Below, piece after piece: positions 14,791-61,900 of a stretch of DNA of 64,000 nt (positions within the stretch are counted from its first letter, which is position 1; every line of letters starts with the position of its first letter). A model generated the notes under the pieces. That model had not been told where the DNA came from. It searched no databases and worked only from the letters and a program-made list of their open reading frames with translations. The stretch is from Eledone cirrhosa (taxonomy: Eukaryota): positions 114,576,001 to 114,640,000 of the forward strand of contig OZ024740.1 of the NCBI GenBank assembly GCA_964016885.1, given 5' to 3'. A program made the translations under genes and the position numbers.

Positions 14791-15914
14791 TAGTGGAAAA
14801 TATCTTCAGTGTATTTCATGTTATTATATTGTCTTTTTTTTTTTTCTTTCTTTTTTTTATAGTCTTTATTGTTGTTTCGGTTGTGGTTTAGTTCCAGATC
14901 AGTGGTTTCCAGACTACGGTCTTCAACGCTAGTACTGAGTAACTGTGAGATAACTTCAACATTACAAATACTCTGTTGAAAACAAAATATACACTGGATA
15001 TTGGGTATCCATTGATCTATATATATAAATATTTCCTTTCCGATTGTTATTGTCGCTATATAACAATTTAGGAAGAAAGCAAGTTTAGTGAGGGGTCGTG
15101 AGGAAATTGATTTATGTAAGTTTATTTTCATGGGAATGAAGGGCTGGGGACCATCATTACTGGTTAAATGCATTACCATGAACACTCCACCTTTGTTCAG
15201 GTCATAGTGTGCTTTAAATATGATACAGATTGTAGTTAGGACATAGCTTCAGATAGATTTGGTTACCACAATACTATTAATCTTGTGTGAAATTCAGACG
15301 AATATATCCACCATAGAAAGGTAATCAACTATCGTACAAAGATCATCAGGGAGTTTCAGCAGCGACACCTAACTTTAGAGTTGCTGTTTAGCTTGAGGTC
15401 AAATCTCACTGAGCAGACCTATCATGAAACAAAGGGTTTATCTTTTTTATATATAACTACGACTGTATATACTTCTTATTCAATATAGTAGTAGACATGT
15501 CATGAACGGTACTAAACTATCACTATCGCATGTTAATTTTAAACAATGGCAGTGAATCTGTCGTGGGGATAGAGTCTTCAAGCACACCTTCAAATGTATT
15601 TTCAGATGAAATGTTCACACACACTTTGATATCGGGAATAAAATTGAAGCAATTCATCCATTGCATGTTAGTTACACTATAGATTGCAACATATTGAAGA
15701 AGACACGTCCCAATTGTAAATGTTATAGTCGATTGGATTGACGTTTCTATATTATGTTTAATATAAAGCTTCGAGATAGATAAAAGAAAATGAATTCTTA
15801 AGAGATTCGATTTTAAAACATAGAACAATGAAATTAATGATTATTGCTATGGTGGACTTTAATCAAAGCCTTCTTTCAACTTACAATTTTCATAATTCGA
15901 AATATATTAATAGA

Positions 15915-16686
15915 ACTTATAAATGAAGCTCTTGTTCGAAGTGGATTTGTCGATAAGGTAGCATATACAGAGTACGAAAATAGACCTAGAAGAAATAGAT
16001 CCCGTCGCATTTGTTGGTTTAACCCACCATATAATATGGAGGTGGCCACACCATTAGCTAAGATCTTTCTTTCCCTTATTACGAAGCATTTTCCCCCTAC
16101 ACATAAATATAGTAAAATTTTGAATAGAAATACTATTAAAATTTCTTACTCTACGACTCCTAACCTTGCACATAACATCACAGCTTCAAATTTAGCTGAA
16201 CTACCTAGCCGTAGGAACACATGCAACCCTGTAGTTAGTACTAACTGTAATTGTAGGAATCGGGCTGATTGCCCCCTATCCGGGAAATGCCTCTCTAGTA
16301 ACATTGTCTACAAATGTAAGGTTGTAACACCCACGTCCCGTAGGGCCTACATAGGGTTAACCGCCAATAGTTTCAAGCAGCGTCTTTACATGAATACCCA
16401 TTCTTTTCGTTACCCTCTAAGAAGGAATATGACGTCACTTTCAGCTTATATCTGGAGTCTAAAAGACAACCACACCCAATATAAGTTACACTGGGAGATC
16501 CTAGCTAGGGCTAGATCGTATAACGGAAATAAAAGACCATGTGACCTCTGCGCCGCTGAGGCCCTGGAAATACTCTACGCCACAGACCACATCTTAAACA
16601 AAAAATCTGAGGCAATTTCGGCTTGTAAACATAAATTGCACAAAACTTTCCTGTATTACAGCCCCACGTTATACCCTAACGGATAG
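15915..16686 (+). pseudogene. 5'-truncated Penelope-like element: RT thumb/linker and GIY-YIG endonuclease
   Basis: NEALVRSGF, RRICWFNPPYN, CNCR..CPLSGKC, IVYKC..AYIGLT..FKQR..H, CDLCAAE; non-coding 3' region continues to ~17770. Confidence 0.85.
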
Positions 16687-27745: not shown

Positions 27746-30700
27746 TTGGGGCCCTTTCTGCCCGTGTGTTTGTTTGTTTATGTGTGTCCGTATACAGCGT
27801 GGTGATAATGCCACACAAGGGCCAAGTGGGATGGCGGATCCACAGATGGCTATGTAAACATACATTCGCCAATCCTCGATAAGAGTGTTTAAATATCGAA
27901 CATAAACAGTTCGAATAACGGTGAAATGGAGACTAGAACGTCATGTGACAGACTCTCACCCAACAGGTGCCCCCTGGCTCAGCAGCAGGAACCTGACTGT
28001 CAACGAAATACTGCTGATGTTGGAGGAAGAAGAAGAAGGAAAGGGGCCAGAACCAACTGGACGAAAGAATTGAATAGAACTGTTATGCAATGCTACCTGA
28101 AAAGTAACCCCAAGGAGAGGGGCTACAGGAGACGGATGCATAACATCTGGAACGAGATTGGTTTATTTAAATTAGATGAACAAAAATTGGCCGGGCAGGC
28201 TCGGGTAATAAGAACTAATGGGTGGATAAGCGAGCTGGAACTGGAGGAACTGAGCAGAGAGAATGGCTTGGAGATGGCGGGTGTAGTATGCCAGACAAGC
28301 GAGCCGGCGGGAAATGAAGGTGAGGAGGTCCTGAGAGCGGAGGAACCACCCGAAGCAGACAATGATCTGAATACTGAGATAAATAATACCTGGAACAGAG
28401 ATACGGCCACTGAGGAGATGAATGCTGACGGGCTAGGACAAGATTCGGTTGACATCCTAAATTTAGTGGTAGATGAGTTGAACAATGATAGTGGGAGACC
28501 TATGAACCTAAGATTTGTAGACAGGAAAAAGTTAAAAGAAACAACAGCTAAGGTAAACAAAGTCATCCCATACCTTGAGGCGAGGAGTCTTCACCAGTGC
28601 AACAATATCCTCAAAGCAACAGCAAATACGGTGAGGAAACTACTTGGTATAAAAGCGAGAGGAAACAACAGACAAGAAAGAGCAGAGCCGTGGTGGAAGA
28701 AGCGACTGAGTGGGCAAATCGGGGAAATGAGAAATGACATAGGAAAGCTTGAGTCACTACTGAATGGGACACTAAAAAACATAGGCACTAAAAATAGACT
28801 GGAAATAAAATACAAAACTAGGAGTAAAAAGCTAAATATTATCATAGAGGAATTGAAGCAACGCATTGTAGCAAAGAGTGCCAAAATCAGGCGATACGAG
28901 AACAGAGTCAGTCAGTATAAACAGAACCGCATGTTCGACAACAACCAGAAGATGCTGTTTGGACAGCTTGAGGGGAAAGAAAGAGGCACCGACTTGATCC
29001 CTGGGGCGGAACAAGCTAAAACATTCTGGAGAGGAATATGGGAGCAGGATGTTAGACACAATGCCCAGGCAGGGTGGATTGAGACAGTACAGAGGGAGAT
29101 CGGTGAGCAGGCACAGCAACAGACTGATTTGAGTATCACAGTTGAAACTCTTAAGGGGCAAGCCAAAAAACTAACCAACTGGAAATCACCAGGCCCAGAT
29201 GGTGTGCAGGGGTATTGGATTAAACATTTAACATCCCTCCACCCGAAGCTGACGGCCATGTTCAATGACTGCTTGGTGTCGGGTGAGGTGCCAGAGTGGT
29301 TGACAAAAGGTACCACAGTTCTGATAATGAAAGACCGAATCAAGGGTAATGATGTTACCAACTATAGACCTATCACATGTCTGCCCGTAATGTGGAAACT
29401 GTTGACGAGCATTGTGTCTGAGGAAATCTACCATCACCTCCACACAAACAACTTGTTGCCGGACGAACAGAAAGGATGCCGAAAGAAGTCACGTGGTACA
29501 AAGGACCAGTTGCTTATTGATAAGATGGTAATGGGGAATTGCAGGAGGAGACACACTGATCTTGCCATGGGATGGATAGACTACAGAAAGGCATTTGACA
29601 TGGTGCCTCATTCCTGGATCACCAAAAGCCTGGAGATCTTCAGGGTGGCAGATAACATCAGAGAGTTGCTGGGCAGGAGTATGGGGTCCTGGGAGACAGA
29701 GTTGACATCAACTGGAGTATCCTTGGGAAGCGTGAAGATCAAGAGAGGTATCTTCCAGGGAGATAGCCTGTCCCCTCTGTTGTTTGTCCTTGCCCTGATG
29801 CCCTTGACCATTATGCTGCGAAAAGTGAGAGCAGGATACAAGTTGGGAAGGGGAGAGCTTACCATCAATCACCTCCTCTTCATGGACGATCTTAAGCTCT
29901 TCGGGAAAAGTGAGAAGGAGTTGGATGTGCTTGTTGACACTGTCCGTATTTTCAGCAGTGATATATGTATGCAGTTTGGTATTGGTAAATGTGGAGTCAT
30001 TGTGATGAGGAGAGGTAGGTTGAGCAGAAGTAACGGGATCCAGATACCAACAGGTGAGATGATAAAGGAAATTGACTCTGAGGAAGGATACAAGTATTTG
30101 GGCGTTCTGGAGGCTGATGGCATAAAGAACAAAAAAATGAAGGAATTGTTAAGAACTGAATACATTCGGAGAGTAAGGAGCGTATTGAAGTCACATCTGA
30201 ACAGCAGAAATGCCATAAGCGCAGTAAATTCCCGAGCTGTGTCTATTATTAGGTACAGTGCGGGAATTCTGAGATGGAATGTTGCTGAACAAAAAGAAAT
30301 GGATAGGAAGACTAGGAAGCTATTGACTATCTACAACATGTTCCACAAGAGGAGTGATGTCGATAGACTCTACCTAAGGAGATCTGAGGGTGGAAGAGGT
30401 CTTATCAGCATAGAGGACTGTGTTCAGATGGAGAAAAACAACCTATACAAATACGTGACCTATAGTAAGGAGCCAATGCTCAGAGCTGTACTGAAGGAGG
30501 GGAGAGTAGGCCAGGGGATACCCAAGGAGGAAATAACATCAAGGAGGAAGAGCAGCCTTAAGGGAAAATCCCTTCATAGTACCTTCTTTGAGAAAACTGA
30601 ATTTAGAGATCCACAGACATGGAACTGGTTGAGAAGAGGAGACCTCAAAAAGGCTACAGAAGGAATGCTAATGGCTGCGCAGGAGCAGGCCCTCAAAACG

Positions 30701-31404
30701 AAGTGGTTGAAGCACCATATCTACAAGGAGGAGGCTAGCCCACTGTGCAGGATCTGTGGAGAGAGAGAGGAGACTGTGGCTCACATTGTGTCCGAGTGTA
30801 AACACCTAGCCCAGACCCACTATAAGGGCTGGAGACACGATGTGATGGGCAGGGTGATCCACTGGCACCTGTGCAAAGTAAACAATCTACCACATTCTGA
30901 GAAATGGTATGAGCATAGGCCAGAGGCGGTGATGGAGAACAGTCAGGTGAAGGTGCTGTGGGATTTTAGGATACAGACGGACAAAAAACTGGAACACAAT
31001 AGACCTGACCTGGTGGTTGTGGACAAAGAAAAAAGATCGTGCCTGATTGTGGATGTGGCCTGCCCGTTCGACACGAGAGTGCAAGAGAAGGAGAGGGAGA
31101 AAATTAACCGATACCAGGACCTAAAGTGGGAGGTGAAAAGGATTTGGAACTGCCATGAAGTCAAAGTGATCCCGATTGTCATAGGCGCACTGGGGACTAT
31201 CTCCAAAGGTTTCCAGGGATGGTTAAAGAAAATCGGCCCCTTCACGCTTTTTGGAACGCTTCAAAAGGCATGCTTGCTTGGAACGGCAAGAACCCTCCGA
31301 TACGTCCTGAATATCTGAGGCTGCAGGTAGTGGCTTGATATTCAATCCAACGGACTTTCCAGTTAACCAACATCAATGACTGAGATTCAAGGAATAACAA
31401 TAAC

Positions 31405-31440
<36 letters not shown>
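27746..31440 (+). mobile_element. Apparently full-length R4/Dong-like non-LTR retrotransposon with (TAA)n tail
   Basis: Single intact ORF with RT and C-terminal restriction-like endonuclease (RLE), ~75-nt 3'UTR, then (AAT)n; 5' boundary approximate. Confidence 0.85.
27926..31318 (+). CDS. Reverse transcriptase / restriction-like endonuclease polyprotein (1130 aa, uninterrupted)
   Basis: KSPGPDG, YRPITCL, IDYRKAFDMV, QGDSLSPLLF, LFMDD, YKYLG, CCHC finger CRICGEREETVAHIVSEC, RHD, RPDLVVVD..IVDVACP..EK..Y. Confidence 0.95.
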   Translation: METRTSCDRLSPNRCPLAQQQEPDCQRNTADVGGRRRRKGARTNWTKELNRTVMQCYLKSNPKERGYRRRMHNIWNEIGLFKLDEQKLAGQARVIRTNGWISELELEELSRENGLEMAGVVCQTSEPAGNEGEEVLRAEEPPEADNDLNTEINNTWNRDTATEEMNADGLGQDSVDILNLVVDELNNDSGRPMNLRFVDRKKLKETTAKVNKVIPYLEARSLHQCNNILKATANTVRKLLGIKARGNNRQERAEPWWKKRLSGQIGEMRNDIGKLESLLNGTLKNIGTKNRLEIKYKTRSKKLNIIIEELKQRIVAKSAKIRRYENRVSQYKQNRMFDNNQKMLFGQLEGKERGTDLIPGAEQAKTFWRGIWEQDVRHNAQAGWIETVQREIGEQAQQQTDLSITVETLKGQAKKLTNWKSPGPDGVQGYWIKHLTSLHPKLTAMFNDCLVSGEVPEWLTKGTTVLIMKDRIKGNDVTNYRPITCLPVMWKLLTSIVSEEIYHHLHTNNLLPDEQKGCRKKSRGTKDQLLIDKMVMGNCRRRHTDLAMGWIDYRKAFDMVPHSWITKSLEIFRVADNIRELLGRSMGSWETELTSTGVSLGSVKIKRGIFQGDSLSPLLFVLALMPLTIMLRKVRAGYKLGRGELTINHLLFMDDLKLFGKSEKELDVLVDTVRIFSSDICMQFGIGKCGVIVMRRGRLSRSNGIQIPTGEMIKEIDSEEGYKYLGVLEADGIKNKKMKELLRTEYIRRVRSVLKSHLNSRNAISAVNSRAVSIIRYSAGILRWNVAEQKEMDRKTRKLLTIYNMFHKRSDVDRLYLRRSEGGRGLISIEDCVQMEKNNLYKYVTYSKEPMLRAVLKEGRVGQGIPKEEITSRRKSSLKGKSLHSTFFEKTEFRDPQTWNWLRRGDLKKATEGMLMAAQEQALKTKWLKHHIYKEEASPLCRICGEREETVAHIVSECKHLAQTHYKGWRHDVMGRVIHWHLCKVNNLPHSEKWYEHRPEAVMENSQVKVLWDFRIQTDKKLEHNRPDLVVVDKEKRSCLIVDVACPFDTRVQEKEREKINRYQDLKWEVKRIWNCHEVKVIPIVIGALGTISKGFQGWLKKIGPFTLFGTLQKACLLGTARTLRYVLNI

Positions 31441-31812
31441 CGTGTCTGATTGTGGATGTGTCCTGCCCGTTCGACACGAGAGTGCAAGAGAAGGAGAGGG
31501 AGAAAATTAACCGATACCAGGACCTAAAGTGGGAGGTGAAAAGGATTTGGAACTGCCATGAAGTCAAAGTGATCCCGATTGTCATAGGCGCACTGGGGAC
31601 TATCTCCAAAAGTTTCCAGGGATGGTTAAAGAAAATCGGCCCCTTCACGCTTTTTGGAACGCCTCAAAAGGCATGCTTGCTTGGAACAGCAAGAACCCTC
31701 CGATACGTCCTGAATATCTGAGGCTGCAGGTAGTGGCTTGATATTCAATCCAACGGACTTTCCAGTTAACCAACATCAATGACTGAGATTCAAGGAATAA
31801 CAACAATAATAA
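31439..31812 (+). mobile_element. 5'-truncated second copy of the R4/Dong-like element within the (TAA)n tail of the first
   Basis: Nearly identical to 31037-31400 with only a few substitutions. Confidence 0.93.
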
Positions 31813-34800
31813 TGCTTTCTTTATTAACCACAAGGGTCTACATGAAGTAGACATTAAGGACAGTACAGAACAATACATGGCGGTACAAATGGGCATTTCT
31901 GCGTGTAAAAGACAAGAAACAGAGGATCTAATAATAGAACAATGAAAAAATTCCCCAATAGGGGGGAGACTTCCGAGGGACATTCGTGTAGAAAGCCCAT
32001 TAAAAAGCCACAGTGACCCTGACCACCAGGGAAAATGCCCTCTCCAAGTTTTCCACCTTTAATTTACAGACACATTCACTCGGGCCATTCTTGCCTCTCT
32101 CACCCATCTTTCAACAAAATGCTGGGAAGAGAGCATTTCCCTCTCTACCCTGATTTTCCTTTTCAAATGAAATTTGAAAAAGTTAATCAGGGCATCACCG
32201 AAGAGGTAAGTGCTCGTCTTCAGCCCTTTCAAACGTGTCGACTATACTATCTCTTTCGCCACGGCCACCAGACAGATAAAAACTGCCTGCCCTTCCCGGC
32301 TAAAAGAAGAGGGCGGGGCAATCCTCACGATGGACTCAGCTGATAGCCGTATCCGTCCTACACGCGACAGCAGGTGTTCGACATAAACCCACAAGTCAGC
32401 AATGCTCGGACACTGGACGAGTGCGTGCAGGACGGTTTCGTCGCCCTGCGCGCATCTCGGACATGCCCGGCTGACGGCACCTCCATGCCTGTAGAGTTTA
32501 TCCTGAACAGGCAAAGCTCCTCGGTAGCACTGCCAGGCCAGGGATTTCTGGAAGTTGTCCATAGGCCCCGGCCCGAAATTTCTTCCGAAGAGATTGGCTA
32601 GTTGATTTTCGTCGAAGCCTAGAGTTTCCCCAAGCACGTCGTCGCTCTTCCTCTCCACTAATCCTCTATAGAACGCCAAGGTGGAGTTTCCGCCGATCAC
32701 ATTGCCCGATTGGTCGAGGGCTGTGAGCGACTGAAGACATTCCAGTCTCCAAGCGCTCCCTCTCGGTCTTCGCTTGAGCCAGGACTGCAGCTCCGTCAAG
32801 GAGACGAGCTGGGGAAAGACGCGTCAAGCAAACGGAGACCACACCTGATCACCGTCGAGGAAAAGGTGGAGGTGTCGTAGCCTGAGCGTGTGGCTGCGCA
32901 TCATCAGCCACGGCATTCCCAGCCCTCCACGTAGCGGGTGTTGACAGCAGATGGACCGCCCGATCATCGGAGCGCGTCCCTTCCATAAAAAGCGAAAGAG
33001 CAAACGCTCCAGCGCAGTCAGCACAAGGTACGACGGTCAGCCGGTAGTAAATGACGGACGCGATTTAGGCGTTAGCCACCTCCGCTTGACCTTTGAGGGA
33101 TAGCTTCCACACGGCCCATTTCTGGGTGAGAGAAGTCACCCTGCTCGTCACCTCGTCCCAGTTTTTGTCCGTCTGGAGATCCGGTCCGAACCAGACCCCG
33201 AGAAATTTAACTGGTCCGTCCGTCCAGCGCCCGACGACGTTGTTGGACGGCATTGACCTGCCTCTCCAGGTGCAGAGCTGCAGGCCCACTGACTTTTCCT
33301 GGTTGATCATTGCTCCTGTCACCGCTTCGTATTCTTTTCCGCATCCTAGTTCGCGCGGGATCCCCCTCAACGTCTCCAGTTTATGCAGTAATGGCTCGAG
33401 AGTCAATACTTGCAAGAGGCACGAGAGGGGACATCCTTGGCGGACCTAGTTCATGATGTTGAACGGTTCCCATAGGTGACCGTTCACTCTCACCACAGAG
33501 CAGATGTCGCCGTGCATGGCAGCGATCCAGCCGCTGAAGATGGGCCAAAAGCCAGCCGCCCTCAGGACTGCCGCTAGGTAACGTCAGATCACCAACGACA
33601 AACGCCAACCACTTTGCTAGCACTTTGGCCAAAATCTTGAACTCTGTGTTTAGCAGAGTTATGGGTCTGAAATTATCGATGGTATCCCCCTTGTTCGGAT
33701 CCTTTCTCAGCAGCACCACAGTTCCTCGGCTCACAGAGCTGGGAATTCTCCCGTTCTTTTGCCAGTTTCAGTAGACGTCCGCCAAGAGGCCTCCGAACAA
33801 GTCTGGCATCTGTACGTAAAGTTCATAGGGCAGACCATCCAAACCAGCGATTTACTCTTGTGCAGCCTTCCATACTTCAACGGCTGTTATCGGCTTTTCG
33901 CAACACTCCGACTCAGTGGCCGAGAGCCGCGGCAGTCCGTCGAGGTAGACACTAAATCCATCCCTCGATCCGGCCAGCCGCTGCGCCTGAAGAGCTGTGC
34001 GAAGTGTCGCTGAAAAGCTTCACACATTTGCCCGGGATCGAGTAGCATGCGTCCGTCGTGGTCCACCAAAGACCGGATCGTGGCTTTGTTCCCTCTTCCT
34101 TATTTTTCTCTATTGCTAAAGCCTTACTAAACCTAATGGACTCTATACTAATCGCTCTTTTCAGAGCAAACCACCAGTTGTTGATGATGTTGGCCCCCGT
34201 CAACACCCGCTTAACTAGTTCGCTAATCCGGTCTCTGTAGGCCTTGCGCGCTGGTAAGGACGCGTTTAGTTTCCAGTAGCCGGGTCCTTCTCTATGAAGC
34301 CTATCTAAGTCAACCACACAGCACACAAATTTGTGGTCCGTGTAGCTGATTGTACTTCAGCGGTTGTTATCGGCTTTTCGCAACACTCCGTCTCAGTGGC
34401 CGAAAGCCGCGGCAGTCCGTCGAGGTATACACTAAAGTCCATCCCTCGATCCGGCCCGCCACTGCCCCCGAACAGTTGAGCGATGTGTCGCTGAAAAGCT
34501 TCACACATTTGCCCGGGATCGAGTAGCATGCGCCCGTCGTGGTCCACCAAAGACCGGATCGTGGCTTTGTTGTCACGACGCGCCTCCGCCACTCGGGCCC
34601 ATTGAACGGCTTTCGTCCCCTCGTGTCTGAGAGCAGGCACCCTAGCTCTGACAACGCAGCCTTCGTGCTTTGCATTGAAGAATTGGTCAAGGGCCAATTT
34701 CGCCGCAAGCACGTCGGTCGCGATGCCTTTGCTAAGCGCCTCGTCTAATTTTCTAACTAATTCTCCCTCTGCTCTATTTTTCTCTATTGCTAAAGCCTTA

Positions 34801-43786: not shown

Positions 43787-43827
<41 letters not shown>

Positions 43828-43874
43828 GATATTAAATAAATGGAAACTATATTTATAAAACCATATTTATTTCA

Positions 43875-43930
43875 TTAGATATATTTCAGGGATATCATAT
43901 TAAAAATATGGTACGCCTTCATCAGACAAA
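43875..43930 (-). ncRNA. Hammerhead-like motif (probably degenerate) in a PLE terminal-repeat remnant
   Basis: CTGATGA-agg..catatt/aatatg..cct-GAAA-tatATC; stem I poorly paired. Confidence 0.4.
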
Positions 43931-44121
43931 ATACAATATAAACAGTCTTATAAATAGATAGATTTGACATACCTTACAAACTTCAACTTCCATTTAAAAA
44001 GTTGATTTGGTAGTGAAAAATGTTAGGGACAGTTATAAAAAGAAAGAAAGAAAGAAAGCGAAGAAAAATATATCAGTTATAAATATTTACTCTTTGTAAC
44101 CCAACAATTTAAATAAAACTT

Positions 44122-44177
<56 letters not shown>

Positions 44178-44181
<4 letters not shown>

Positions 44182-44482
44182 TATGTATGTATGTATACGT
44201 ACATACATATATGTATACAGACGTAGAGTAGTATGTACACATATATATATGCACACATATATATATGCACGTATCGGTTTACCGAACATTTATTATAATG
44301 CTAGGTTTGTTTCTTTGTAAACAAACAAACACCCAGAATTACGCCGTACAGTGTTTAGGCAACCACGTCACCTTTTTTTTCAACACTGACACAGGAACGA
44401 TGTACTAGTTTCAAGCTTATTAGCTATCGTCAGCATCGTATATCTTCCTGCCAGATGGTTGAACGTCTGAAAGTATATACTT
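44178..44482 (-). mobile_element. Dispersed copy of the hammerhead-bearing ~422-bp repeat family, with intact ribozyme
   Basis: Minus strand cgatg-CTGACGA-tagctaataagctt-GAAA-cta-GTA-catcg; homologous to the 59.6-61.9 kb units. Confidence 0.85.
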
Positions 44483-44500
44483 TCCCACTATGCTAAACCC

Positions 44501-45412
44501 ATGGCCTCCAAATACCTGATACTCAAAAACTCAGCAATGTCCAGTAGTGCTAAGTTTAATATTCTGATCGCAGATTTGGTACGAGTGATGAAGAATGTGT
44601 CCAGCATGTGCGACCCAACAGAAATGGAAGGACACATCCAACACTTCATCAACCGCATGCAGTTCTCTGGCTACAACCAAAGAGACAGAGTCAGAGTATA
44701 CGAAGGAGCCATGGAAAAGTATAAGACCCTCATAGAACTGGACATGAAAGGAATTTGCCCACTATACAGGAGCAAATCATGGAATAGCTTAGATAGGGCT
44801 AGACATAAGATAGGGAAGGCCACATCATGGTACGACAACCAGAGATATCAGAGTGTCATGTTTGTGGACGCCACCCCCGGAGGGAAATTAGCTTACCAGT
44901 GTAGAAAGGCCCTGAGAAAGACCCACTTAAAAATAAAGGTGGTAGAAAAGCCAGGAACCACCATAAAATCCCTGATCAGCAAAACCTACCCTTTTAAGAA
45001 AACCCACTGTACCAATAGGAAATGTATCATATGTAAGGTGAACCCCCGGATAAACTGTAAAACTAGAAACGTAGTCTATAGCATAAGATGTACAGAGGGT
45101 ACTTGCAGAAACATGACAACAATATACATAGGTGAGACAGCTCGTAGCATAGGTGAAAGGATAGACCAACACTGGGGGGAACTAAAAGGACGAAAAAACG
45201 GGTCAGTACTATACGAACATGCTAGACAACAACATGACGGTAACATAGACAACATAGAAATTAGAATAATATCTAAACATAGGAATGACCCAGTAGATAG
45301 GCAAATCAGAGAGGCCAGTGAAATAGAAATTAGAAGACCAAAGCTAAACAGAAAGAATGAGTGGAACAACAACAACACCCAAACAAACAACACTGACCTA
45401 AGAGAAGTATAA
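44501..45412 (+). CDS. PLE RT thumb and GIY-YIG endonuclease (5'-truncated upstream copy)
   Basis: VVYSIRC..C..IYIGETARSIGER..H..H..R.IREA..PKLN. Confidence 0.85.
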   Translation: MASKYLILKNSAMSSSAKFNILIADLVRVMKNVSSMCDPTEMEGHIQHFINRMQFSGYNQRDRVRVYEGAMEKYKTLIELDMKGICPLYRSKSWNSLDRARHKIGKATSWYDNQRYQSVMFVDATPGGKLAYQCRKALRKTHLKIKVVEKPGTTIKSLISKTYPFKKTHCTNRKCIICKVNPRINCKTRNVVYSIRCTEGTCRNMTTIYIGETARSIGERIDQHWGELKGRKNGSVLYEHARQQHDGNIDNIEIRIISKHRNDPVDRQIREASEIEIRRPKLNRKNEWNNNNTQTNNTDLREV

Positions 45413-45699
45413 ATAAGTAAATAAAATTAAATAAAATAAGATAAATAAATACATACACAAGCACAATAACAACAAGCACATAAACACACACTAGTCACCC
45501 AGCAGACACAACACTATACACACTAGTCACACATCACACATAACACTATACACACACGCAAACGCATGCGCAAAGAAGACAAAATAAAATAAGATAAACA
45601 AACAAGCAAATAAATAAATAAATATATAGACAGACTGAACAAAAAAAAAAAAAAAAAAAAAAATGGCGTAGACATACAACACAACAGGAGGAACAATGA

Positions 45700-45750
45700 A
45701 TATAACACCACTGACGATGTTGCAGATGTGCAACGAAAGATTTATGTAAA
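45700..45750 (+). ncRNA. Hammerhead-like motif in PLE pLTR (second copy at ~49852-49902)
   Basis: CTGACGA(45711)-tGTTGCA gatg TGCAAC-GAAA-gat-TTA; strong stem II, weak stems I and III. Confidence 0.55.
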
Positions 45751-45934
45751 TTATGTAAACTATATATATGTGTTTGTGTCTATATTGTATCTGTATTATT
45801 TTTGACCGCCGGTCAGTCAATGGCAACATTGAGGACCGAATAAGTTAAATCGCAGATATAAAAGACAGCGAGAAGAGAAAACCAACCAAACAGTGAGTGT
45901 GTTCTGTTATTAATTCTGGCAATATTACGCAAAT

Positions 45935-48900
45935 ATGACCCTCCCCAAATATAACAATATCTGTTTCGACACACGATTTCATATAAAAAACCTCGCAAAA
46001 CTAATTCATCGCCGCTATGGCATTAGCTTGTGCCAAGCTGAAAGGTTATTGAAAGACACTGTTTTCTGTTATATAAAAACTACAATAACAACAGAACAAA
46101 TCCGCTTCTTAAAACACTGTGTTTCCTGCAAAACATACACAACAAACATATCAAAACAAGTAAATAATTTATTATTGAACAAAACACAAGCTGAACGGCT
46201 AAAACACACAATAACAGTTAATATGAAAAGAACAACATACACAAAAGTCAACGCACTCTACAGACAAAAACGCATCAACGGTAAGGAAATCCGAAATCTC
46301 ATCACAGCAAACGAGAGAGATGACTTCATGAGCGTCATCCGACGCGAAACGAAATATGCTCAAAACGAATGCTGTAGGCATTTCAAGAAGAAATTAGAAT
46401 GGATGAATAAGAAAGAAAAAACTACAAGAAAGGAAAATCGAATATTCTCAAAAATACCCAGATAACATCGACAACATCCGTATGAGTGATGTAAAACTAC
46501 CGGAAGAATTTACCAATGACCACACAGTAAATATCTATGGGAACACTTTAATCAGTGAACAAGAACAACAAATCCTAAGGTTACCACCAAAATTTGCCAT
46601 CTACAAAAAGATTAACCCTATGGAATGCAAAACGGAGCTGGAAAAGTGTTTCACAAAAATACGTTGGAATGCAAAGGTAAACAACAACAACAATAATAAC
46701 GGTAGTAGTAATATAAACAATAACTCTGGGTATAGAAATAACAGCCATAACCATAACAATGGCAGGAAAGTGAGAAATAGTGATAATGGCAATAATACTA
46801 GCGATAGACGGAACAACAACAACCACAATAATAATAATAATAGAAACGTTAACCACAGACACAGCAACAGTGACCACAGTAGTAATAACGGTAACAATAC
46901 GAACAACAACAACAATAACCACAGTGGTAATAATGGAAATAGTACATGTAGCATCATCAATAAAAACAAGAAACATAATAATAGTAACAACCACAATGGT
47001 AGAAATAGCAGTAACAACAACAACAATAACGGTGAAGTAAACAACAATACATCTAGCAATCATAACAATAATAATATTAATGCTAATGATGGAAACAACA
47101 ACAACCACCATGATAACAATAATAGCAACACACACAACTATAACGATAGAAATAACGACAACCCCTTAGAGAAACTATTTTTCAACCCAGCCGACAAAAC
47201 ATATAAGATGGGTAATATCTATCCTACGAGGTTACCCTTTAATAAAAGAGTTTGCATACCACAGCAAATAGATGACGAGACGGAGGCACAGTTCACCATA
47301 GCTAGAAATAAGATTAGACAAGTAGTAGACAGGTACACTATGAGACAGAGCAGACCAGAGGCCCAACAACTTGGAATAAAACCTGTAGAAGGCTTGGTTA
47401 GCCTCAAGCAGCGCACAAGGGATGGTGAGGTAGTGTGTCTACCCACAGATAAGTCTGGTAGGATGTCAATAGATAGCATGCCGAACTACATCGAGGCAAT
47501 GCAACCCCACATCACCAACACGAGCGAAGTTGCACAACTAACACACGATGGGAGAGAAAAAATCCTCAACGCTCACATGATGATGTGGACTGACATCCTA
47601 AAGCCAAGCAGACGCACTGCCAACAACTTCCAGGCGTCTAACAATGGCATACCACCCTTGTATGGGCTCCGCAAAGACCACAAGACAGTCGACGACCCGA
47701 CAACAGGACCACCAACAAGACCCGTATGCGGAGCTAATATAGCTAGCAACTACAGGATCTCATACTTCCTCTCGATGGTTATACGCCCCATAATGAAGGT
47801 GTCCCCAGATGTATGTGAAAGTACAGAGGACCTCCTCAGCAGAATCAGTGAGTGCAACAAAAACAGGAGCCTATCCAACTGCATAATAGGCAGCATGGAT
47901 GTGGTGTCACTGTACCCATCCATTAACATTGATTTTGCTGTGAAAAGATGTGTGGAGATGATCATTGAGAGTGAGGTGGAGTTCTGCGACGTCGACACAG
48001 ACGAACTGGGCCTCCTACTTAGACTTACCTACGACACTGACTACCTAGGCAGCCATGACCTTAGATGTTTCTGCCCTAGTAGACCTATAAGAGGTAGACC
48101 CCCACCATAACCTCAATGGCTAAAAAGACTCCCATAGGAAGGTGGATTGGGTGGACCAAAGCTATACGGACCCCCCAAAACACTGATCAGGTAAGAAAAA
48201 TGGTCGCACATGCAATAGGGGCTAGTATCAAAACTACCCTAAAGGGCCACATATTTAAGTTCAATGAGAAAATCTACACCCAAAATGAGGGAGCAGCCAT
48301 CGGCGTCAGCATAGCTGGTGATGTTGCCAACCTTTTCATGGTATGGTGGGAAAGGAGACTTAAAGATCTCCTTAATGAAAGCTCCATAGACCTCATCATG
48401 TACTCCCGTTATGTAGACGACATCAATATAGTTATAAGAACACCCCCACTAGAGAGCACCAACAAGTTTGATTTAGAACGTAGCACGATGGAAAGCATCC
48501 AGCAGATAGCTAATTCCATACACCAGAGTATAACTGTAACTATAGACTTCCCTTCCAAACACCCTAACAATAGACTACCTGTATTAGACACAGAACTCTG
48601 GATTAACACTATAGACGAGAGAGCCCAAATTCTCCACTCACACTATGCTAAACCCATGGCCTCCAAATACCTGATACTCAAAAACTCAGCAATGTCCAGT
48701 AGTGCTAAGTTTAATATTCTGATCGCAGATTTGGTACGAGTGATGAAGAATGTGTCCAGCATGTGCGACCCAACAGAAATGGAAGGACACATCCAACACT
48801 TCATCAACCGCATGCAGTTCTCTGGCTACAACCCAAGAGACAGAGTCAGAGTATACGAAGGAGCCATGGAAAAGTATAAGACCCTCATAGAACTGGACAT

Positions 48901-49561
48901 GAAAGGAATTTGCCCACTATACAGGAGCAAATCATGGAATAGCTTAGATAGGGCTAGACATAAGATAGGGAAAGCCACATCATGGTACGACAACCAGAGA
49001 TATCAGAGTGTCATGTTTGTGGACGCCACCCCTGGAGGGAAATTAGCTAACCAGTGTAGAAAGGCCCTGAGAAAGACCCACTTAAAAATAAAGGTGGTAG
49101 AAAAGCCAGGAACCACCATAAAATCCCTGATCAGCAAAACCTACCCTTTTAAGAAAACCCACTGTACCAATAGGAAATGTATCATATGTAAGGTGAACCC
49201 CCGGATAAACTGTAAAACTAGAAACGTAGTCTATAGCATAAGATGTACAGAGGGTACTTGCAGAAACATGACAACAACATACATAGGTGAGACAGCTCGT
49301 AGCATAGGTGAAAGGATAGACCAACACTGGGGGGAACTAAAAGGACGAAAAAACGGGTCAGTACTATACGAACATGCTAGACAACAACATGACGGTAACA
49401 TAGACAACATAGAAATTAGAATAATATCTAAACATAGGAATGACCCAGCAGATAGGCAAATCAGAGAAGCCAGTGAAATAGAAATTAGAAGACCAAAGCT
49501 AAACAGAAAGAATGAGTGGAACAACAACAACACCCAAACAAACAACACTGACCTAAGATAA
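45935..49561 (+). pseudogene. PLE RT-GIY-YIG polyprotein (~1200 aa) broken by two single-base frameshifts
   Basis: PTDKSG, PPLYGLRKDHK, RPVC, SMDVVSLYPSI, GAAIGVS, YSRYVDD, LPVLD, GIY-YIG; shifts at C runs near 46458 and 48100. Confidence 0.88.
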
Positions 49562-50104
49562 GTATAAATAAGTAAATAAAATTAAATAAAATAAGATAAA
49601 TAAATACATACACAAGCACAATAACAACAAGCACATAAACACACACTAGTCACCCAGCAGACACAACACTATACACACTAGTCACACATCACACATAACA
49701 CTATACACACACGCAAACGCATGCGCAAAGAAGACAAAATAAAATAAGATAAACAAACAAGCAAATAAATAAATAAATATATAGACAGACTGAACAAAAA
49801 AAAAAAAAAAAAAAATGGCGTAGACATACAACAAAACAGGAGGAACAATGAATATAACACCACTGACGATGTTGCAGATGTGCAACGAAAGATTTATGTA
49901 AATTATGTAAACTATATATATGTGTTTGTGTCTATATTGTATCTGTAATAATTTTTGACCGCCGGTCAGTCAATGGCAACATTGAGGACCGAATAAGTTA
50001 AATCGCAGATATAAAAGACAGCGAGAAGCGAAAACCAACCAAACAGTGAGTGTGTTCTGTTATTAATTCTGGCAATATTACGCAAATATGACCCTCCCCA
50101 AATA

Positions 50105-50180
<76 letters not shown>

Positions 50181-50300
50181 TTCATTGATTACTCAATGAA
50201 TGTAGTTTTACAATAGATTAAAAGCAATCTACATTTTCTGGAGTTATTAATGTGTTATTCTGAATATTAATAAATGAAGACATTCACATAATCAAAATAT

Positions 50301-50367
50301 GTTTTATTATATATATTTCGAAGGTACTGTGCTGTTTTTTCAGTACGTCGTCGTCAGATAAAATACA
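50301..50367 (-). ncRNA. Minimal type I hammerhead motif
   Basis: ttttat-CTGACGA-cgac GTACTG..CAGTAC cttc-GAAA-tatat-ATA-ataaaa; stems I and II pair, stem III is a TA palindrome. Confidence 0.55.
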
Positions 50368-51874
50368 TGAATTGATGTAGGACATACCTGAACGGTCTTG
50401 ATAGTTCAATTCCAATACTGGAATATTTGTTCACTTATATAACTAATTCTGCAATTAATACCTGATGAAATCGCTAGGCCTTGTATCATATTCGGATGAT
50501 GAAGTTGGTTTATTGAAATATGTATAGTGTTTTCGCGAAATTAAAATGGTAAAGTTTCCAGACCGGCCTTCTGGTGTTATTTTTAATGAATATTTTACAC
50601 CATTCCTGCACCAACCCCTGGACACACATCTGCGATAGATAATCTGCATAACGTCCCGTGCTTTAATTTATTGCATCATCGTTTACTAAACGGAAAATAA
50701 GTAAAAGAAAAAGATTTCGAACTATAGAAAGTGTATGAGGAGGAAAAAACTTACAACCATTTTAGAAGGGTTTTTTTTTAATCAAGAAAAAATGTCGACT
50801 GAGAAATGAGTTTGCTTACCTGTTCTTCAGTTCTAGTTGTCAACATCTTTCTCAAATTGAGAGAAAATGAAGTGAAATAGTTGTAGCTATAAACATAAAT
50901 ATTATAAGTCCATTTATTGTCTTACATATAAAAGTAACAAAGGAACGGCTATAAAGTCTTAAAATGAGAATCTATGTTGCCACTGGACCTATAAGAAATA
51001 ATTTTCTCTCAATCATACCATACTCATTTTAAAATGCGGAAGGAAATATGTATATCCAGCATGATATAGTAATGTACACAATACGAGATGGTCAAGGCTT
51101 TGATTGGAGATGTGCTACATTAGGATCGATTTGGAAATAAACAACAGCAACGACTTTAATTTATGTTGTAAAGCGTAAGTTCAGTTCCATTCGGACACTT
51201 CTGTATTTGCAGACACAGCTGTTTAAACTTTCATACAATTATCTGATTTTTTTTACAAAACATTCTTGGATATTTTATCGATATTCGATTCTGTGAAGAA
51301 ATGCTACTGCAATATGTGAAGTTCTTCATTGATTTCAGGTTTGTTCATTGATATTAGGTTCTTTATATGAATCTGCTGACTTTCGTTGAAAACAAAATTC
51401 ACTCTTTGAAGTTCCGGTGGTTAAGTCCGAAATGTTGACAGGCCGCTGAAAATTCGCAGCTAATTACACATCAGTTTTACAACCAGTTACTAAGGTGCAA
51501 TCATCAGCAAAAAAAAATCTGGAATATTTGCATGCTTAACACAGAGTGTAATTTTATAGGGCTCTAAACGTATTGATTCGTTTATTTGAATGCCTAAATC
51601 GGTATCTGAGATAGAGCAATCGATAAGAACAGAACGGAAACAAGACGTCAAATCCTGTAGTATATAAGCGTAGACATAATACTATACAAAACAGACCATA
51701 CATATCTATCTATCTATCTCTCCTTCTCTCTCACTCTCTTTCCTTCTCGCTCTCTCTCCTTCTGTCTCTCTCTTTCTCTCTCTCTATATATATATATACT
51801 TATTTATTAAAATAACAGATTAAATTTTAAGCAATGAACCGCTTATATATATATATATATATATAAAGGGAGAT

Positions 51875-58048: not shown

Positions 58049-58051
<3 letters not shown>

Positions 58052-58358
58052 TAAATAGAAGGAAATGAAATTTCATTTCTCACTCTTAGTACGGCTGTTA
58101 CTTAAATGTAAGTATGTTTGTATGTATACGTACATACATATATGTATACAGACGTACAGTAGTATGTATATATATATACATACATGCACACATATATATA
58201 TGTACGTATCGGTTTACCGAACATTTATTATAATGCTCGGTTTGTTCGTTTGTAAACAAACAAACAGCCGAATTACGCCGTAGTGTTTAGGCAACCACGT
58301 CACCTTTTTGTTCAACACTGACACAGGAACGATGTACTAGTTTCAAGCTTATTAGCTA

Positions 58359-58360
<2 letters not shown>
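58049..58360 (-). mobile_element. Truncated dispersed copy of the hammerhead-bearing repeat family, between (TA)n tracts
   Basis: Homologous to array units from ribozyme stem II to the family 3' end; CTGACGA core truncated. Confidence 0.85.
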
Positions 58361-58408
<48 letters not shown>

Positions 58409-59567: not shown

Positions 59568-59587
59568 TTATATATACACACATGCAT

Positions 59588-61894
59588 GCTTGTTTACAAA
59601 CACACCGAGCATTATAATAAATATTCGGTGAATCCATACGTGCATATATATATGTGTACATGTATGTATATATATACATACTACTGTACGTCGGTATACA
59701 TATATGTATGCACGTATACATACTTATATTTAAGTAACAGCCGTACTAAGAGTGGGAAATGAAATTTCGTTTCATTTTTTCCGTTTATCGTTTTCGGTGC
59801 ACCCGGCCGATTAACCCACTCGATATGCAAATTGGGCTACTCAGCCGTTAATATGCATAAGGTAAGTATATACGTTCAACAATCTGGCAGGAAGGTATAC
59901 GTTGCTGACGATAGCTAACAAGCTTGAAACTAGTACAGCGTTCCTTTGTCAGTGTTGAACAAACGAGCAACGGTGGTTGCTAGACACTACGGCTTAATAC
60001 GGGATGTTTGTTTACAAACACACCGAGCATTATAATAAATATTCGGTGAATCCATACGTGCATATATATATGTGTGCATGTATGTATATATATATATACA
60101 TACTACTGTACGTCGGTATACATATATGTATGTACGTGTACATACTTCTATTTAAGTAACAGCCGTACTAAGAGTGGGAAATCAAATTTCGTTTCATTTT
60201 TTTCCGTTTATCGTTTTAGGTGCACCCGGCCGATTAACCCACTCGATATGCAAATTGGGCTACTCAGCCGTTAATATGCATAAGGTAAGTATATACGTTC
60301 AACAATCTGGCAGGAAGGTATACGTTGCTGACGATAGCTAACAAGCTTGAAACTAGTACAGCGTTCCTTTGTCAGTGTTGAACAAACGAGCAACGGTGGC
60401 TGCTAGACACTACGGCTTAATACGGGATGTTTGTTTACAAACACACCGAGCATTATAATAAATATTCGGTGAATCCATACGTGCATATATATATGTGTGC
60501 ATGTATGTATATATATATATACATACTACTGTACGTCGGTATGCATATATGTATGTACGTGTACATACTTATATTTAAGTAACAGCCGTACTAATAGTGG
60601 GAAATGAAATTTCGTTTCATTTTTTCAGTTTATCGTTTTCGGTGCACCCGGCCGATTAACCCACTCGATATGCAAATTGGGCTACTTAGCCGTTAATATG
60701 CATAAGGTAAGTATATACGTTCAACAATCTGGCAGGAAGATATACGTTGCTGACGATAGCTAACAAGCTTGAAACTAGTACAGCGTTCCTTTGTCAGTGA
60801 TGAACAAACGAGCAACGGTGGTTGCTAGACACTACGGCTTAATACGGGATGTTTGTTTACAAACACACCGAGCATTATAATAAATATTCGGTGAATCCAT
60901 ACGTGCATATATATATGTGTGCATGTATGTATATATATATATATACATACTACTGTACGTCGGTAAACATATATGTATGTACGTGTACATACTTCTATTT
61001 AAGTAACAGCCGTACTAAGAGTGGGAAATCAAATTTCGTTTCATTTTTTCCGTTTATCGTTTTCGGTGCACCCGGCCGATTAACCCACTCGATATGCAAA
61101 TTGGGCTACTCAGCCGTTAATATGCATAAGGTAAGTATATACGTTCAACAATCTGGCAGGAAGGTATACGTTGCTGACGATAGCTAACCAGCTTGAAACT
61201 AGTACAGCGGTCCTTTGTCAGTGTTGAACAAGCGAGCAACGGTGGTTGCTAGACACTACGGCTTAATACGGGATGTTTGTTTATAAACACACCGAGCATT
61301 ATAATAAATATTCGGTGAATCCATACGTGCATATATATATGTGTGCATGTATGTATATATATATATACATACTACTGTACGTCGGTATACATATATGTAT
61401 GTACGTGTACATACTTCTATTTAAGTAACAGCCGTACTAATAGTGGGAATGAAATTTCGTTTCATTTTTTCCGTTTATCGTTTTCGGTGCACCCGGCCGA
61501 TTAACCCACTCGATATGCAAATTGGGCTACTCAGCCGTTAATATGCATAAGGTAAGTATATACGTTCAACAATCTGGCAGGAAGGTATACGTTGCTGACG
61601 ATAGCTAACAAGCTTGAAACTAGTACAGCGTTCCTTTGTCAGTGTTGAACAAGCGAGCAACGGTGGTTGCTAGACACTACGGCTTAATACGGGATGTTTG
61701 TTTACAAGCACACCGAGCATTATAATAAATATTCGGCGAATCCATACGTGCATATATATATGTGTGCATGTATGTATATATATATATACATACTACTGTA
61801 CGTCGGTATACATATATGTATGTACGTGTACATACTTATATTTAAGTAACAGCCGTACTAAGAGTGGGAAATGAAATTTCGTTTCATTTTTTCC

Positions 61895-61900
<6 letters not shown>
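59588..61900 (+). repeat. Tandem array of ~422-bp units (about 5.5 copies), each with a hammerhead ribozyme; retrozyme-like
   Basis: CTGACGA cores at 59905, 60328, 60750, 61174, 61595 (periods 423, 422, 424, 421); no meaningful ORF; flanked by (TA)n. Confidence 0.93.
59889..59945 (+). ncRNA. Type I hammerhead ribozyme, first of five array copies
   Basis: cgttg-CTGACGA-tAGCTaacaAGCTt-GAAA-cta-GTA-cagcg; predicted cleavage after A59935. Confidence 0.85.

What the first reader, a model, noticed from the sequence alone, without database searches (positions are those of the whole stretch)
44178..44520. Hammerhead-repeat copy fused head-to-head to the Penelope-like element: candidate helper/passenger pair
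Seen: an inverted, diverged copy of the 422-bp family ends at ~44482, about 3 nt from the 5' truncation point of the PLE (44486). The missing remainder of the unit does not reappear beyond the PLE 3' end (50108), so this is not a clean insertion into a pre-existing copy. The whole composite is bounded by (TA)n. Known: PLE insertions often carry an inverted segment at their 5' end, and PLE RTs are the proposed mobilisers of animal retrozymes. Inference: both RNAs were integrated in one event, pointing to this PLE family as the trans-acting machinery.
Basis: partly seen in the sequence, partly recalled or inferred. Interest (0 to 1): 0.75.

Follow-up and report, generated by a model that had tools for sequence, protein, structure and literature searches.

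The report
Retrozyme and Penelope stacked in microsatellite
A predicted self-cutting RNA repeat is joined seamlessly to a Penelope-type jumping gene, but the join is a one-off in a spot crowded with such elements and likely comes from two successive insertions, while the matching insertion footprints of the two families across the genome suggest that Penelope-type enzymes copy the repeat.

Summary
The junction is real, with no gap: retrozyme and PLE share a 3-nt microhomology, TCC at 44483-44485. Co-integration is not supported as the main reading. The junction is unique. Head-to-head hammerhead pairs 51-111 nt apart number 100 retrozyme|retrozyme, 95 PLE|PLE and 0 mixed. Two-armed insertions pair a long with a short 3' end in 70 of 74 cases; this composite is short/short. 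The retrozyme arm carries more rare substitutions than the PLE (6/306 vs 27/4974, p=0.011; weaker if counted as events). Both neighbours are further (TA)n-anchored hammerhead elements, so the site is a four-element stack. Best reading: retrozyme first, PLE later (0.62); one two-RNA event 0.23. The helper idea holds at family level: both families share the (TA)n target, the two-armed anatomy and a 57-59-nt tail, also seen in a sister PLE but not in a Poseidon-type one (about 89 nt). This scan noted that footprint earlier on other DNA of this genome. No read confirms the junction or shows an empty site.

The parts
43791..43826 (.). (TA)18 tract, outer anchor of the left neighbour
43828..44124 (-). 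Left neighbour: small complete two-armed insertion of another hammerhead family (arm 43828-44068 on - with core starting at 43925; tail-only arm 44069-44124 on +). A family member flanks a Poseidon-like RT/GIY-YIG reading frame in L230
44125..44178 (.). (TA)27 tract shared tail-to-tail by the left neighbour and the retrozyme arm
44180..44485 (-). Retrozyme arm, subtype B, unit positions 368 through the hammerhead to 232 (short 3' end at the left)
44403..44433 (-). Type I hammerhead core of the retrozyme arm (CUGACGA U AGCU-loop-AGCU U GAAA CUAG UA); predicted cut between 44403 and 44402
44483..44485 (.). Junction: 3-nt microhomology TCC shared by retrozyme and PLE
   Evidence: unique in the genome
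44483..50110 (+). Penelope-like element, partial tandem, Neptune/Nematis-type architecture, single-armed, short 3' end
44486..45957 (+). Upstream pLTR (5'-truncated copy); 12 substitutions against the downstream pLTR
45711..45744 (+). Minimal hammerhead motif of the upstream pLTR
   Evidence: features as in PMC4209133
45935..49561 (+). PLE reading frame from the ATG at 45935, split over three frames (45914-46465, 46407-48110, 48098-49561): RT, C-X4-C-X2-C linker, GIY-YIG endonuclease
48641..50110 (+). Downstream pLTR, with hammerhead motif at 49863-49896
50109..50178 (.). (TA)35 tract shared tail-to-tail by the PLE and the right neighbour
50179..50420 (-). Right neighbour: arm of an older hammerhead-bearing family (best matches 92-93%), core starting at 50357
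58050..58361 (-). Solitary subtype-B retrozyme arm between two (TA)n tracts, cut inside the hammerhead core
59586..61900 (+). Subtype-A retrozyme array, 5.5 units of 422 nt, single-armed, long 3' end in (TA)n

Best explanation
The junction most likely joins two successive insertions into one (TA)n target, an older retrozyme arm and a younger Penelope-like element, both likely written in by Penelope-type enzymes. Shown: the join, its 3-nt microhomology, the four-element stack and the shared family footprint. Inferred steps: (1) a PLE protein bound a retrozyme RNA in trans, nicked the (TA)n tract and primed cDNA at the short start site (unit position about 232); (2) later a PLE RNP cut the tract at the retrozyme's head, primed at its own short start (about 216 nt after its hammerhead) from the right-hand (TA)n end, copied 1.35 units and stopped at a recurrent stop site; (3) the cDNA end annealed by TCC to the retrozyme head, losing the TA between and anything else that lay there. 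At family level the ordinary two-armed insertions are inferred to be twin-primed on one RNA, one DNA end at the short and one at the long start.
For: Mixed head-to-head pairs are absent where same-family pairs are common: 0 vs 100 and 95 at 51-111 nt, and 0 at 112-172 nt; upper 95% bound 1.5% of two-armed pairs. 70 of 74 fully classified same-family two-armed insertions are long/short; this one is short/short, as two single arms would often be (short in 21 of 29 PLE and 13 of 30 retrozyme single arms). Both arms are of one subtype in 25 of 25 informative retrozyme pairs, so second RNAs are rarely used. Rare substitutions: 6/306 in the retrozyme arm, 27/4974 in the PLE, p=0.011; no copy of 186 examined shares more than 2 of 9 sites checked, and two of the alleles together occur once in the genome. 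Single arms often join non-TA DNA at their head (10 of 32 PLE, 19 of 32 retrozyme). Both neighbours are TA-anchored hammerhead elements; 9 retrozyme-PLE contacts across TA tracts occur in the fetched loci, among them L149, head-to-head across a 4-nt TA remnant, whose retrozyme units differ by 3-6% while its PLE carries about 0.5-0.7% rare alleles.
Against: No TA remains at the junction, and the 3-nt overlap looks like same-family junctions (25 of 70 overlap by 1-6 nt). Both heads sit where copies often end: PLE heads cluster at 2893-2902 (4 of 87, p=0.028) and L010 has a retrozyme head at the same position 368, so the join needs no large loss. The age gap is thin: counted as 5 or 4 events p=0.035 or 0.10, and 0.04-0.24 if the CpG-richer retrozyme mutates 1.5 times faster. 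Short/short does not argue against two separately primed RNAs. The zero counts show that stacked head-to-head joins are rare too. No allele with the retrozyme alone was seen.
Confidence: 0.62

Rival explanations
1. One integration event used two RNAs: the left DNA end was primed on a retrozyme RNA and the right end on the PLE RNA, and the two cDNAs annealed by TCC.
For: Seamless 3-nt microhomology with no TA left; head-to-head geometry with both outer ends at canonical start sites in (TA)n; both heads in recurrent stop zones. The anole PLE protein extends both strands and is predicted to be a dimer (PMC11167929, parts 1-2 of 4). A figure legend of bioRxiv 10.1101/2024.12.14.628481 describes L1 extending the two ends of one break on different mRNAs (passage).
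Against: 0 mixed against 195 same-family pairs; 0 of 87 PLE arms and 0 of 71 retrozyme arms in the position-ordered survey have a direct mixed head (the one contact, L149, has a TA remnant); 25 of 25 retrozyme pairs use one subtype; short/short ends; more diverged retrozyme arm.
Confidence: 0.23
2. Two complete neighbouring insertions lay here and a later deletion removed their inner arms and the TA tract between them, leaving the two outer short arms joined by microhomology.
For: Gives short/short directly. Direct retrozyme-PLE joins at internal positions with 3-4 nt overlap exist in older copies (L150, L198) and look like such deletions.
Against: The PLE breakpoint lies on a recurrent native head position, which a later random deletion would rarely hit.
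Confidence: 0.12
3. The junction is an assembly artefact between two collapsed repeats.
For: No contig or read in the runs laid bridges it (such holes prove nothing).
Against: Both arms carry private alleles and canonical ends, the PLE head is at a recurrent stop site, and the contig is 443 Mb long.
Confidence: 0.03

Closest known systems
Metazoan non-LTR retrozymes (PMC7229834, passages read; bioRxiv 10.64898/2026.07.22.740005, parts 1-3 of 5 read)
   Same: Non-coding 420-450-nt units with a type I hammerhead, in monomers and tandem arrays, at least 12,756 exact core matches; PLEs proposed as mobilisers.
   Different: In the parts read, the PLE link rests on co-occurrence, shared hammerheads, tandem form and pLTR phylogeny, not on insertion ends. 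Here no sequence similarity to the pLTR was found beyond chance (23-28 of 300 shuffles reach the score); the link is the footprint.
EN+ Penelope-like elements of the Neptune/Nematis type (PMC8557442, passages read)
   Same: C-terminal GIY-YIG with CX2-5CxxC linker, partial tandem with pLTR, inverted 5'-truncated arm, tail at one end, (TA)n target, hammerhead in the pLTR.
   Different: Tail of 43-59 nt rather than 30-40; here the inverted arm is a retrozyme; this copy's frame is broken twice.
Anole Poseidon PAc in vitro (PMC11167929, parts 1-2 of 4 read)
   Same: Two internal RT start sites inside the start of the ORF delimit the tail; both strands cut and extended at AT-rich DNA.
   Different: Another clade; no trans substrate was tested in the parts read.
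L1 twin priming and two-template junctions (bioRxiv 10.1101/2024.12.14.628481, passages only)
   Same: Head-to-head inversion with short microhomology; a case of two ends extended on different mRNAs.
   Different: L1 primes at poly(A) and at variable internal sites; here both starts are fixed internal sites.

Membership tests
Metazoan non-LTR retrozyme | Type I hammerhead (CUGANGA, GAAA, UH; stems I-III; palindromic loop 3) | tested here: met
   Core in 5 array units and the junction arm; fold z=-3.3 for an array unit, -1.7 for the arm; stem I pair 4 is U-G 62, A-U 48, G-U 22 of 142 copies, loop 3 CUAG in 134. No Rfam hit; an extra U flanks stem II.
Metazoan non-LTR retrozyme | Short non-coding unit in tandem and dispersed copies | tested here: met
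   422-nt x 5.5 array; no ORF of 120 aa within 44180-44470 or the array units; 12,756 core matches.
Metazoan non-LTR retrozyme | Self-cleavage and circular RNA in vivo | not testable with these tools
   No RNA run was searched; needs bench work.
EN+ PLE | RT followed by C-terminal GIY-YIG endonuclease | tested here: met
   Motifs read from the translation (YVDD, VVYSIRC...YIGET); Pfam gives only RVT_1 at E=0.001, below its cut-off, and no GIY-YIG hit.
EN+ PLE | Partial tandem with pLTRs, hammerhead in the pLTR, inverted arm and tail | tested here: met
Neptune or Nematis clade | CX2-5CxxC linker before the GIY-YIG | tested here: met
   CTNRKCIIC against the definition in PMC8557442.
Neptune or Nematis clade | Placement in the RT phylogeny | not tested
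   No reference RT set was fetched.
Single-event two-armed PLE-type insertion | One long and one short 3' end | tested here: not met
   Short/short; 70 of 74 same-family pairs are long/short.
Single-event two-armed PLE-type insertion | Arms of equal age | tested here: inconclusive
   6/306 vs 27/4974, p=0.011; p=0.04-0.24 under conservative counting.
Single-event two-armed PLE-type insertion | Both arms present or absent together among alleles | tested here: inconclusive
   Runs laid were short contigs and RAD reads.

The most novel reading that the evidence does not exclude
This is a fossil of one PLE integration complex carrying a retrozyme RNA on one side and its own RNA on the other: a physical capture of helper and passenger that names this Neptune/Nematis-type family as a trans-acting mobiliser of an animal retrozyme and shows that the two DNA ends can be primed on different RNAs.
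Probability: 0.2. Interest if true: 0.75.

Novelty: new member of a known kind. Interest (0 to 1): 0.42.

Why it matters
Which enzyme moves animal retrozymes is proposed, not shown, in the papers read. A true co-integration junction would be direct evidence; this one likely is not, and the result warns that in TA-rich genomes TA-targeting elements pile up and mimic such chimeras. The family data matter more: the same target, the same long/short two-armed anatomy and the same 57-59-nt tail tie the 422/450-nt retrozyme to a Neptune/Nematis-type group and away from a Poseidon-type family with an 89-nt tail. That names an enzyme group, an RNA and two predicted start sites for an in vitro trans test. 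One subtype in both arms (25 of 25) and zero mixed pairs also argue that PLE inverted arms come from twin priming on a single RNA.

Tried and rejected
Rfam: no match at gathering scores in the window and no hammerhead among 34 weak matches in 44150-46000. Pfam: nothing for the PLE frames at E<=0.001. Sequence kinship of retrozyme and pLTR, and a shared stem-loop between the two start sites: not found. Reads: three runs of one sample hold 72-80% of the left-flank words; laid contigs are mostly 30-130 nt and repeat-dominated, none listed bridges the junction, and none at 99% covers the arm's private alleles at 44314-44335. This could mean that the sample lacks both arms, but the tool's filter and my 99% threshold can make such holes, so I draw nothing from it. 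Joints skipping 43864-50296 have sides of 18-25 nt and fit the likeness of the two flanking hammerhead repeats; not taken as an empty site. Flank searches found no haplotig or duplicate of the locus (40 candidates scored each). L149, first taken as a second chimera, has a TA remnant and an older retrozyme. L150 and L198 are direct joins but not head-to-head and lie in older, rearranged copies. A DNA query holding both elements did not enrich for chimeras (1 new contact among 40 scored). A single pattern with a 580-nt gap range was not accepted, so mixed pairs were counted only at 51-172 nt, roughly 4% of two-armed insertions per class by my estimate. Literature searches listed no paper on retrozyme-PLE junctions; most subscription papers are not searched, and the bioRxiv preprint's supplementary tables were not seen.

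Full report
The observation. The window lies at G000:C1:114576001-114640000 in a 3.0-Gb animal genome; its repeats look cephalopod to me (recalled, no call). The copy at 44180-44485 is an inverted member of the family that forms the 422-nt array at 59586-61900 (84% identical). It belongs to a second subtype, B, with a unit of about 450 nt, and its closest copies are 94-98% identical. More than 20 other copies continue ...ACTTTCC TTATGC, six other PLE copies read ...C(ACTC)CCACTATG, and the window reads ...ACTTTCC CACTATG, so the two elements overlap by TCC at 44483-44485 with no gap. A pattern allowing 10-40 nt between a retrozyme and a PLE motif matches only this place.

The two partners. The repeat carries a type I hammerhead: core, short palindromic helix III, a long stem I and one covarying stem I pair across 142 copies; Rfam does not detect it. 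Its core occurs exactly 12,756 times, the PLE's core 8,708 times, controls 0. [quoted passage not shown] Its frame is split in three, so this copy cannot now be a helper.

Family footprint. I annotated loci around 96 of the first 100 listed PLE core hits and about 90 of the first 100 retrozyme hits on C1, plus the 30 loci. Counted from the predicted hammerhead cut, PLE arms end at about 216 (short) or 259-261 and 274 (long); retrozyme A at about 219 or 276; B at 232-237 or 294; nearly all in (TA)n. Of 107 head-to-head pairs, 104 were same-family; 30 of these were dropped for an end at a locus edge or unclassified; of the 74 left, 70 are long/short, 2 short/short (both retrozyme, one with arms 93% and 78% like the reference, one old) and 2 long/long. 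In 12 of the 70 the long arm covers little more than the tail and stops near the short start. In 25 of 25 retrozyme pairs with at least 9 diagnostic sites per arm both arms are of one subtype (9 A/A, 16 B/B; 10 of 35 pairs dropped). I infer twin priming on one RNA, at two fixed internal starts. This fits the anole PLE protein, which starts at two internal sites delimiting the tail, extends both strands and is predicted to be a dimer (PMC11167929, parts 1-2 of 4). That a non-coding RNA shows the same footprint is the main evidence that PLE proteins copy it in trans. I reached this; the look-up showed that the scan had noted the same footprint for this family on other DNA (e1-8665316).

Which helper. 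The tail is 57-59 nt in the retrozyme, 58 (or 43-45) in this PLE, about 59 in a sister PLE family 70-75% alike, about 89 in the Poseidon-type family of the left neighbour and about 95 in the right neighbour's family (the last three read by eye). So the footprint points to this family or its sister, not to every PLE, and not to this family alone. No sequence likeness between retrozyme and pLTR beyond chance was found.

Is this junction one event? Against. (1) Head-to-head hammerhead pairs 51-111 nt apart number 100 retrozyme|retrozyme, 95 PLE|PLE and 0 mixed; 0 mixed at 112-172 nt, where no same-family count was made. Free pairing of two RNAs would give about 195 mixed pairs; the upper bound is 1.5%. 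(2) In the position-ordered survey 54 of 87 PLE arms are joined to an inverted PLE arm, 22 to (TA)n, 10 to other DNA and 1 to a retrozyme across a TA remnant; 39 of 71 retrozyme arms to a retrozyme, 13 to (TA)n, 19 to other DNA, none to a PLE. (3) The composite is short/short. (4) The retrozyme arm has 6 rare alleles in 306 sites, the PLE 27 in 4,974 (p=0.011); they are not a shared haplotype among 186 copies and two of them together are unique. (5) The site is a stack: 43828-44124 is a complete small long/short insertion of another hammerhead family and 50179-50420 an arm of a further one. Nine retrozyme-PLE contacts across TA tracts appear in the fetched loci, from about (TA)54 down to the 4-nt remnant of L149, where the retrozyme units differ by 3-6% and the PLE carries 0.5-0.7% rare alleles.

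For one event. No TA is left; the overlap resembles same-family junctions (25 of 70 overlap by 1-6 nt); the PLE head lies in a cluster of heads at 2893-2902 (4 of 87, p=0.028; also L002) and the retrozyme head at 368 recurs in L010. The age gap rests on few changes: two pairs of them may be single events, and with a faster retrozyme clock p rises to 0.04-0.24. Short/short is also what two separately primed RNAs would often give. L1 can extend the two ends of a break on different mRNAs (10.1101/2024.12.14.628481, passage). The zero counts bound both models alike, at roughly 75 mixed junctions genome-wide by my scaling. The allele test could not be made with the runs served.

Weighing these, I put stepwise insertion at 0.62, co-integration at 0.23, later deletion between two neighbours at 0.12 and artefact at 0.03; these are judgements, not computed posteriors. 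I put trans mobilisation of the family by Neptune/Nematis-type PLE proteins at about 0.85, and this family rather than its sister at about even.

What is known. PMC7229834 (passages) calls PLEs a strong candidate for mobilising animal retrozymes; bioRxiv 10.64898/2026.07.22.740005 (parts 1-3 of 5; supplements not seen) adds co-occurrence and pLTR phylogeny in vertebrates; PMC4209133 (passages) describes the minimal pLTR hammerhead with a base between positions 9 and 10.1, as seen here. Five searches listed nothing on retrozyme-PLE junctions or retrozyme insertion ends, within the library's limits. Verdict: both elements are new members of known kinds; the junction is probably ordinary stacking; the family footprint is the part worth a bench test.

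Noticed in passing
window 43828-44124; L225, L229, L230: Young (98-99%) hammerhead family with an ~89-nt tail; inverted pairs kilobases apart, one enclosing a Poseidon-like RT and GIY-YIG frame, so a Poseidon-type PLE also targets (TA)n here with long/short arms.
   Followed up: partly
window 50179-50420; L233-L241: Older family of short two-armed TA-anchored elements with an unusual hammerhead (long stem II, A-rich loop) and ~95-nt tail; no partner ORF seen in the loci fetched.
   Followed up: partly
window 44483-44491 and 48638-48646; L002, L058, L117, L123, L124, L150: PLE position 2893-2902 (CACTAT) is both a recurrent 5' stop and, in L150, the TA-joined end of an arm, as if also a cryptic priming site.
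   Followed up: partly
L150:5594-7880; L198:1001-2081: Direct retrozyme-PLE joins with 3-4 nt overlap at PLE +72 and +87, beside a TGACC-GCC-GGTCA hairpin; multiple template switches or later deletions, unresolved.
   Followed up: partly
L104, L106, L150, L162, L164, L198: Sister PLE family (70-75% alike, 82-86% over the ORF start) with its own hammerhead and the same short end and ~59-nt tail; the ORF start where RT begins is better conserved than the rest.
   Followed up: partly
window 46680-47160: Long Asn-rich low-complexity insert in the PLE frame before the RT core.
   Followed up: no
window 44468-44484: A 16-nt perfect palindrome (GAAAGTATATACTTTC) of subtype B ends right at the junction; subtype A lacks the 8-nt insert that makes it.
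   Followed up: no
window 15841-16686: Fragment of another, Poseidon-like PLE (RT thumb to GIY-YIG).
   Followed up: no
window 27893-31813: Intact-looking 1141-aa non-LTR ORF (RVT_1, zf-RVT) with a 403-nt tandem duplication of its 3' end.
   Followed up: no
window 62138 (-), 55652 (+): Further hammerhead-like cores outside the elements studied.
   Followed up: no
L205-L217 (C6, 26.49-26.84 Mb): Many near-identical copies of one PLE fragment about 12 kb apart, probably inside a large tandem repeat.
   Followed up: no
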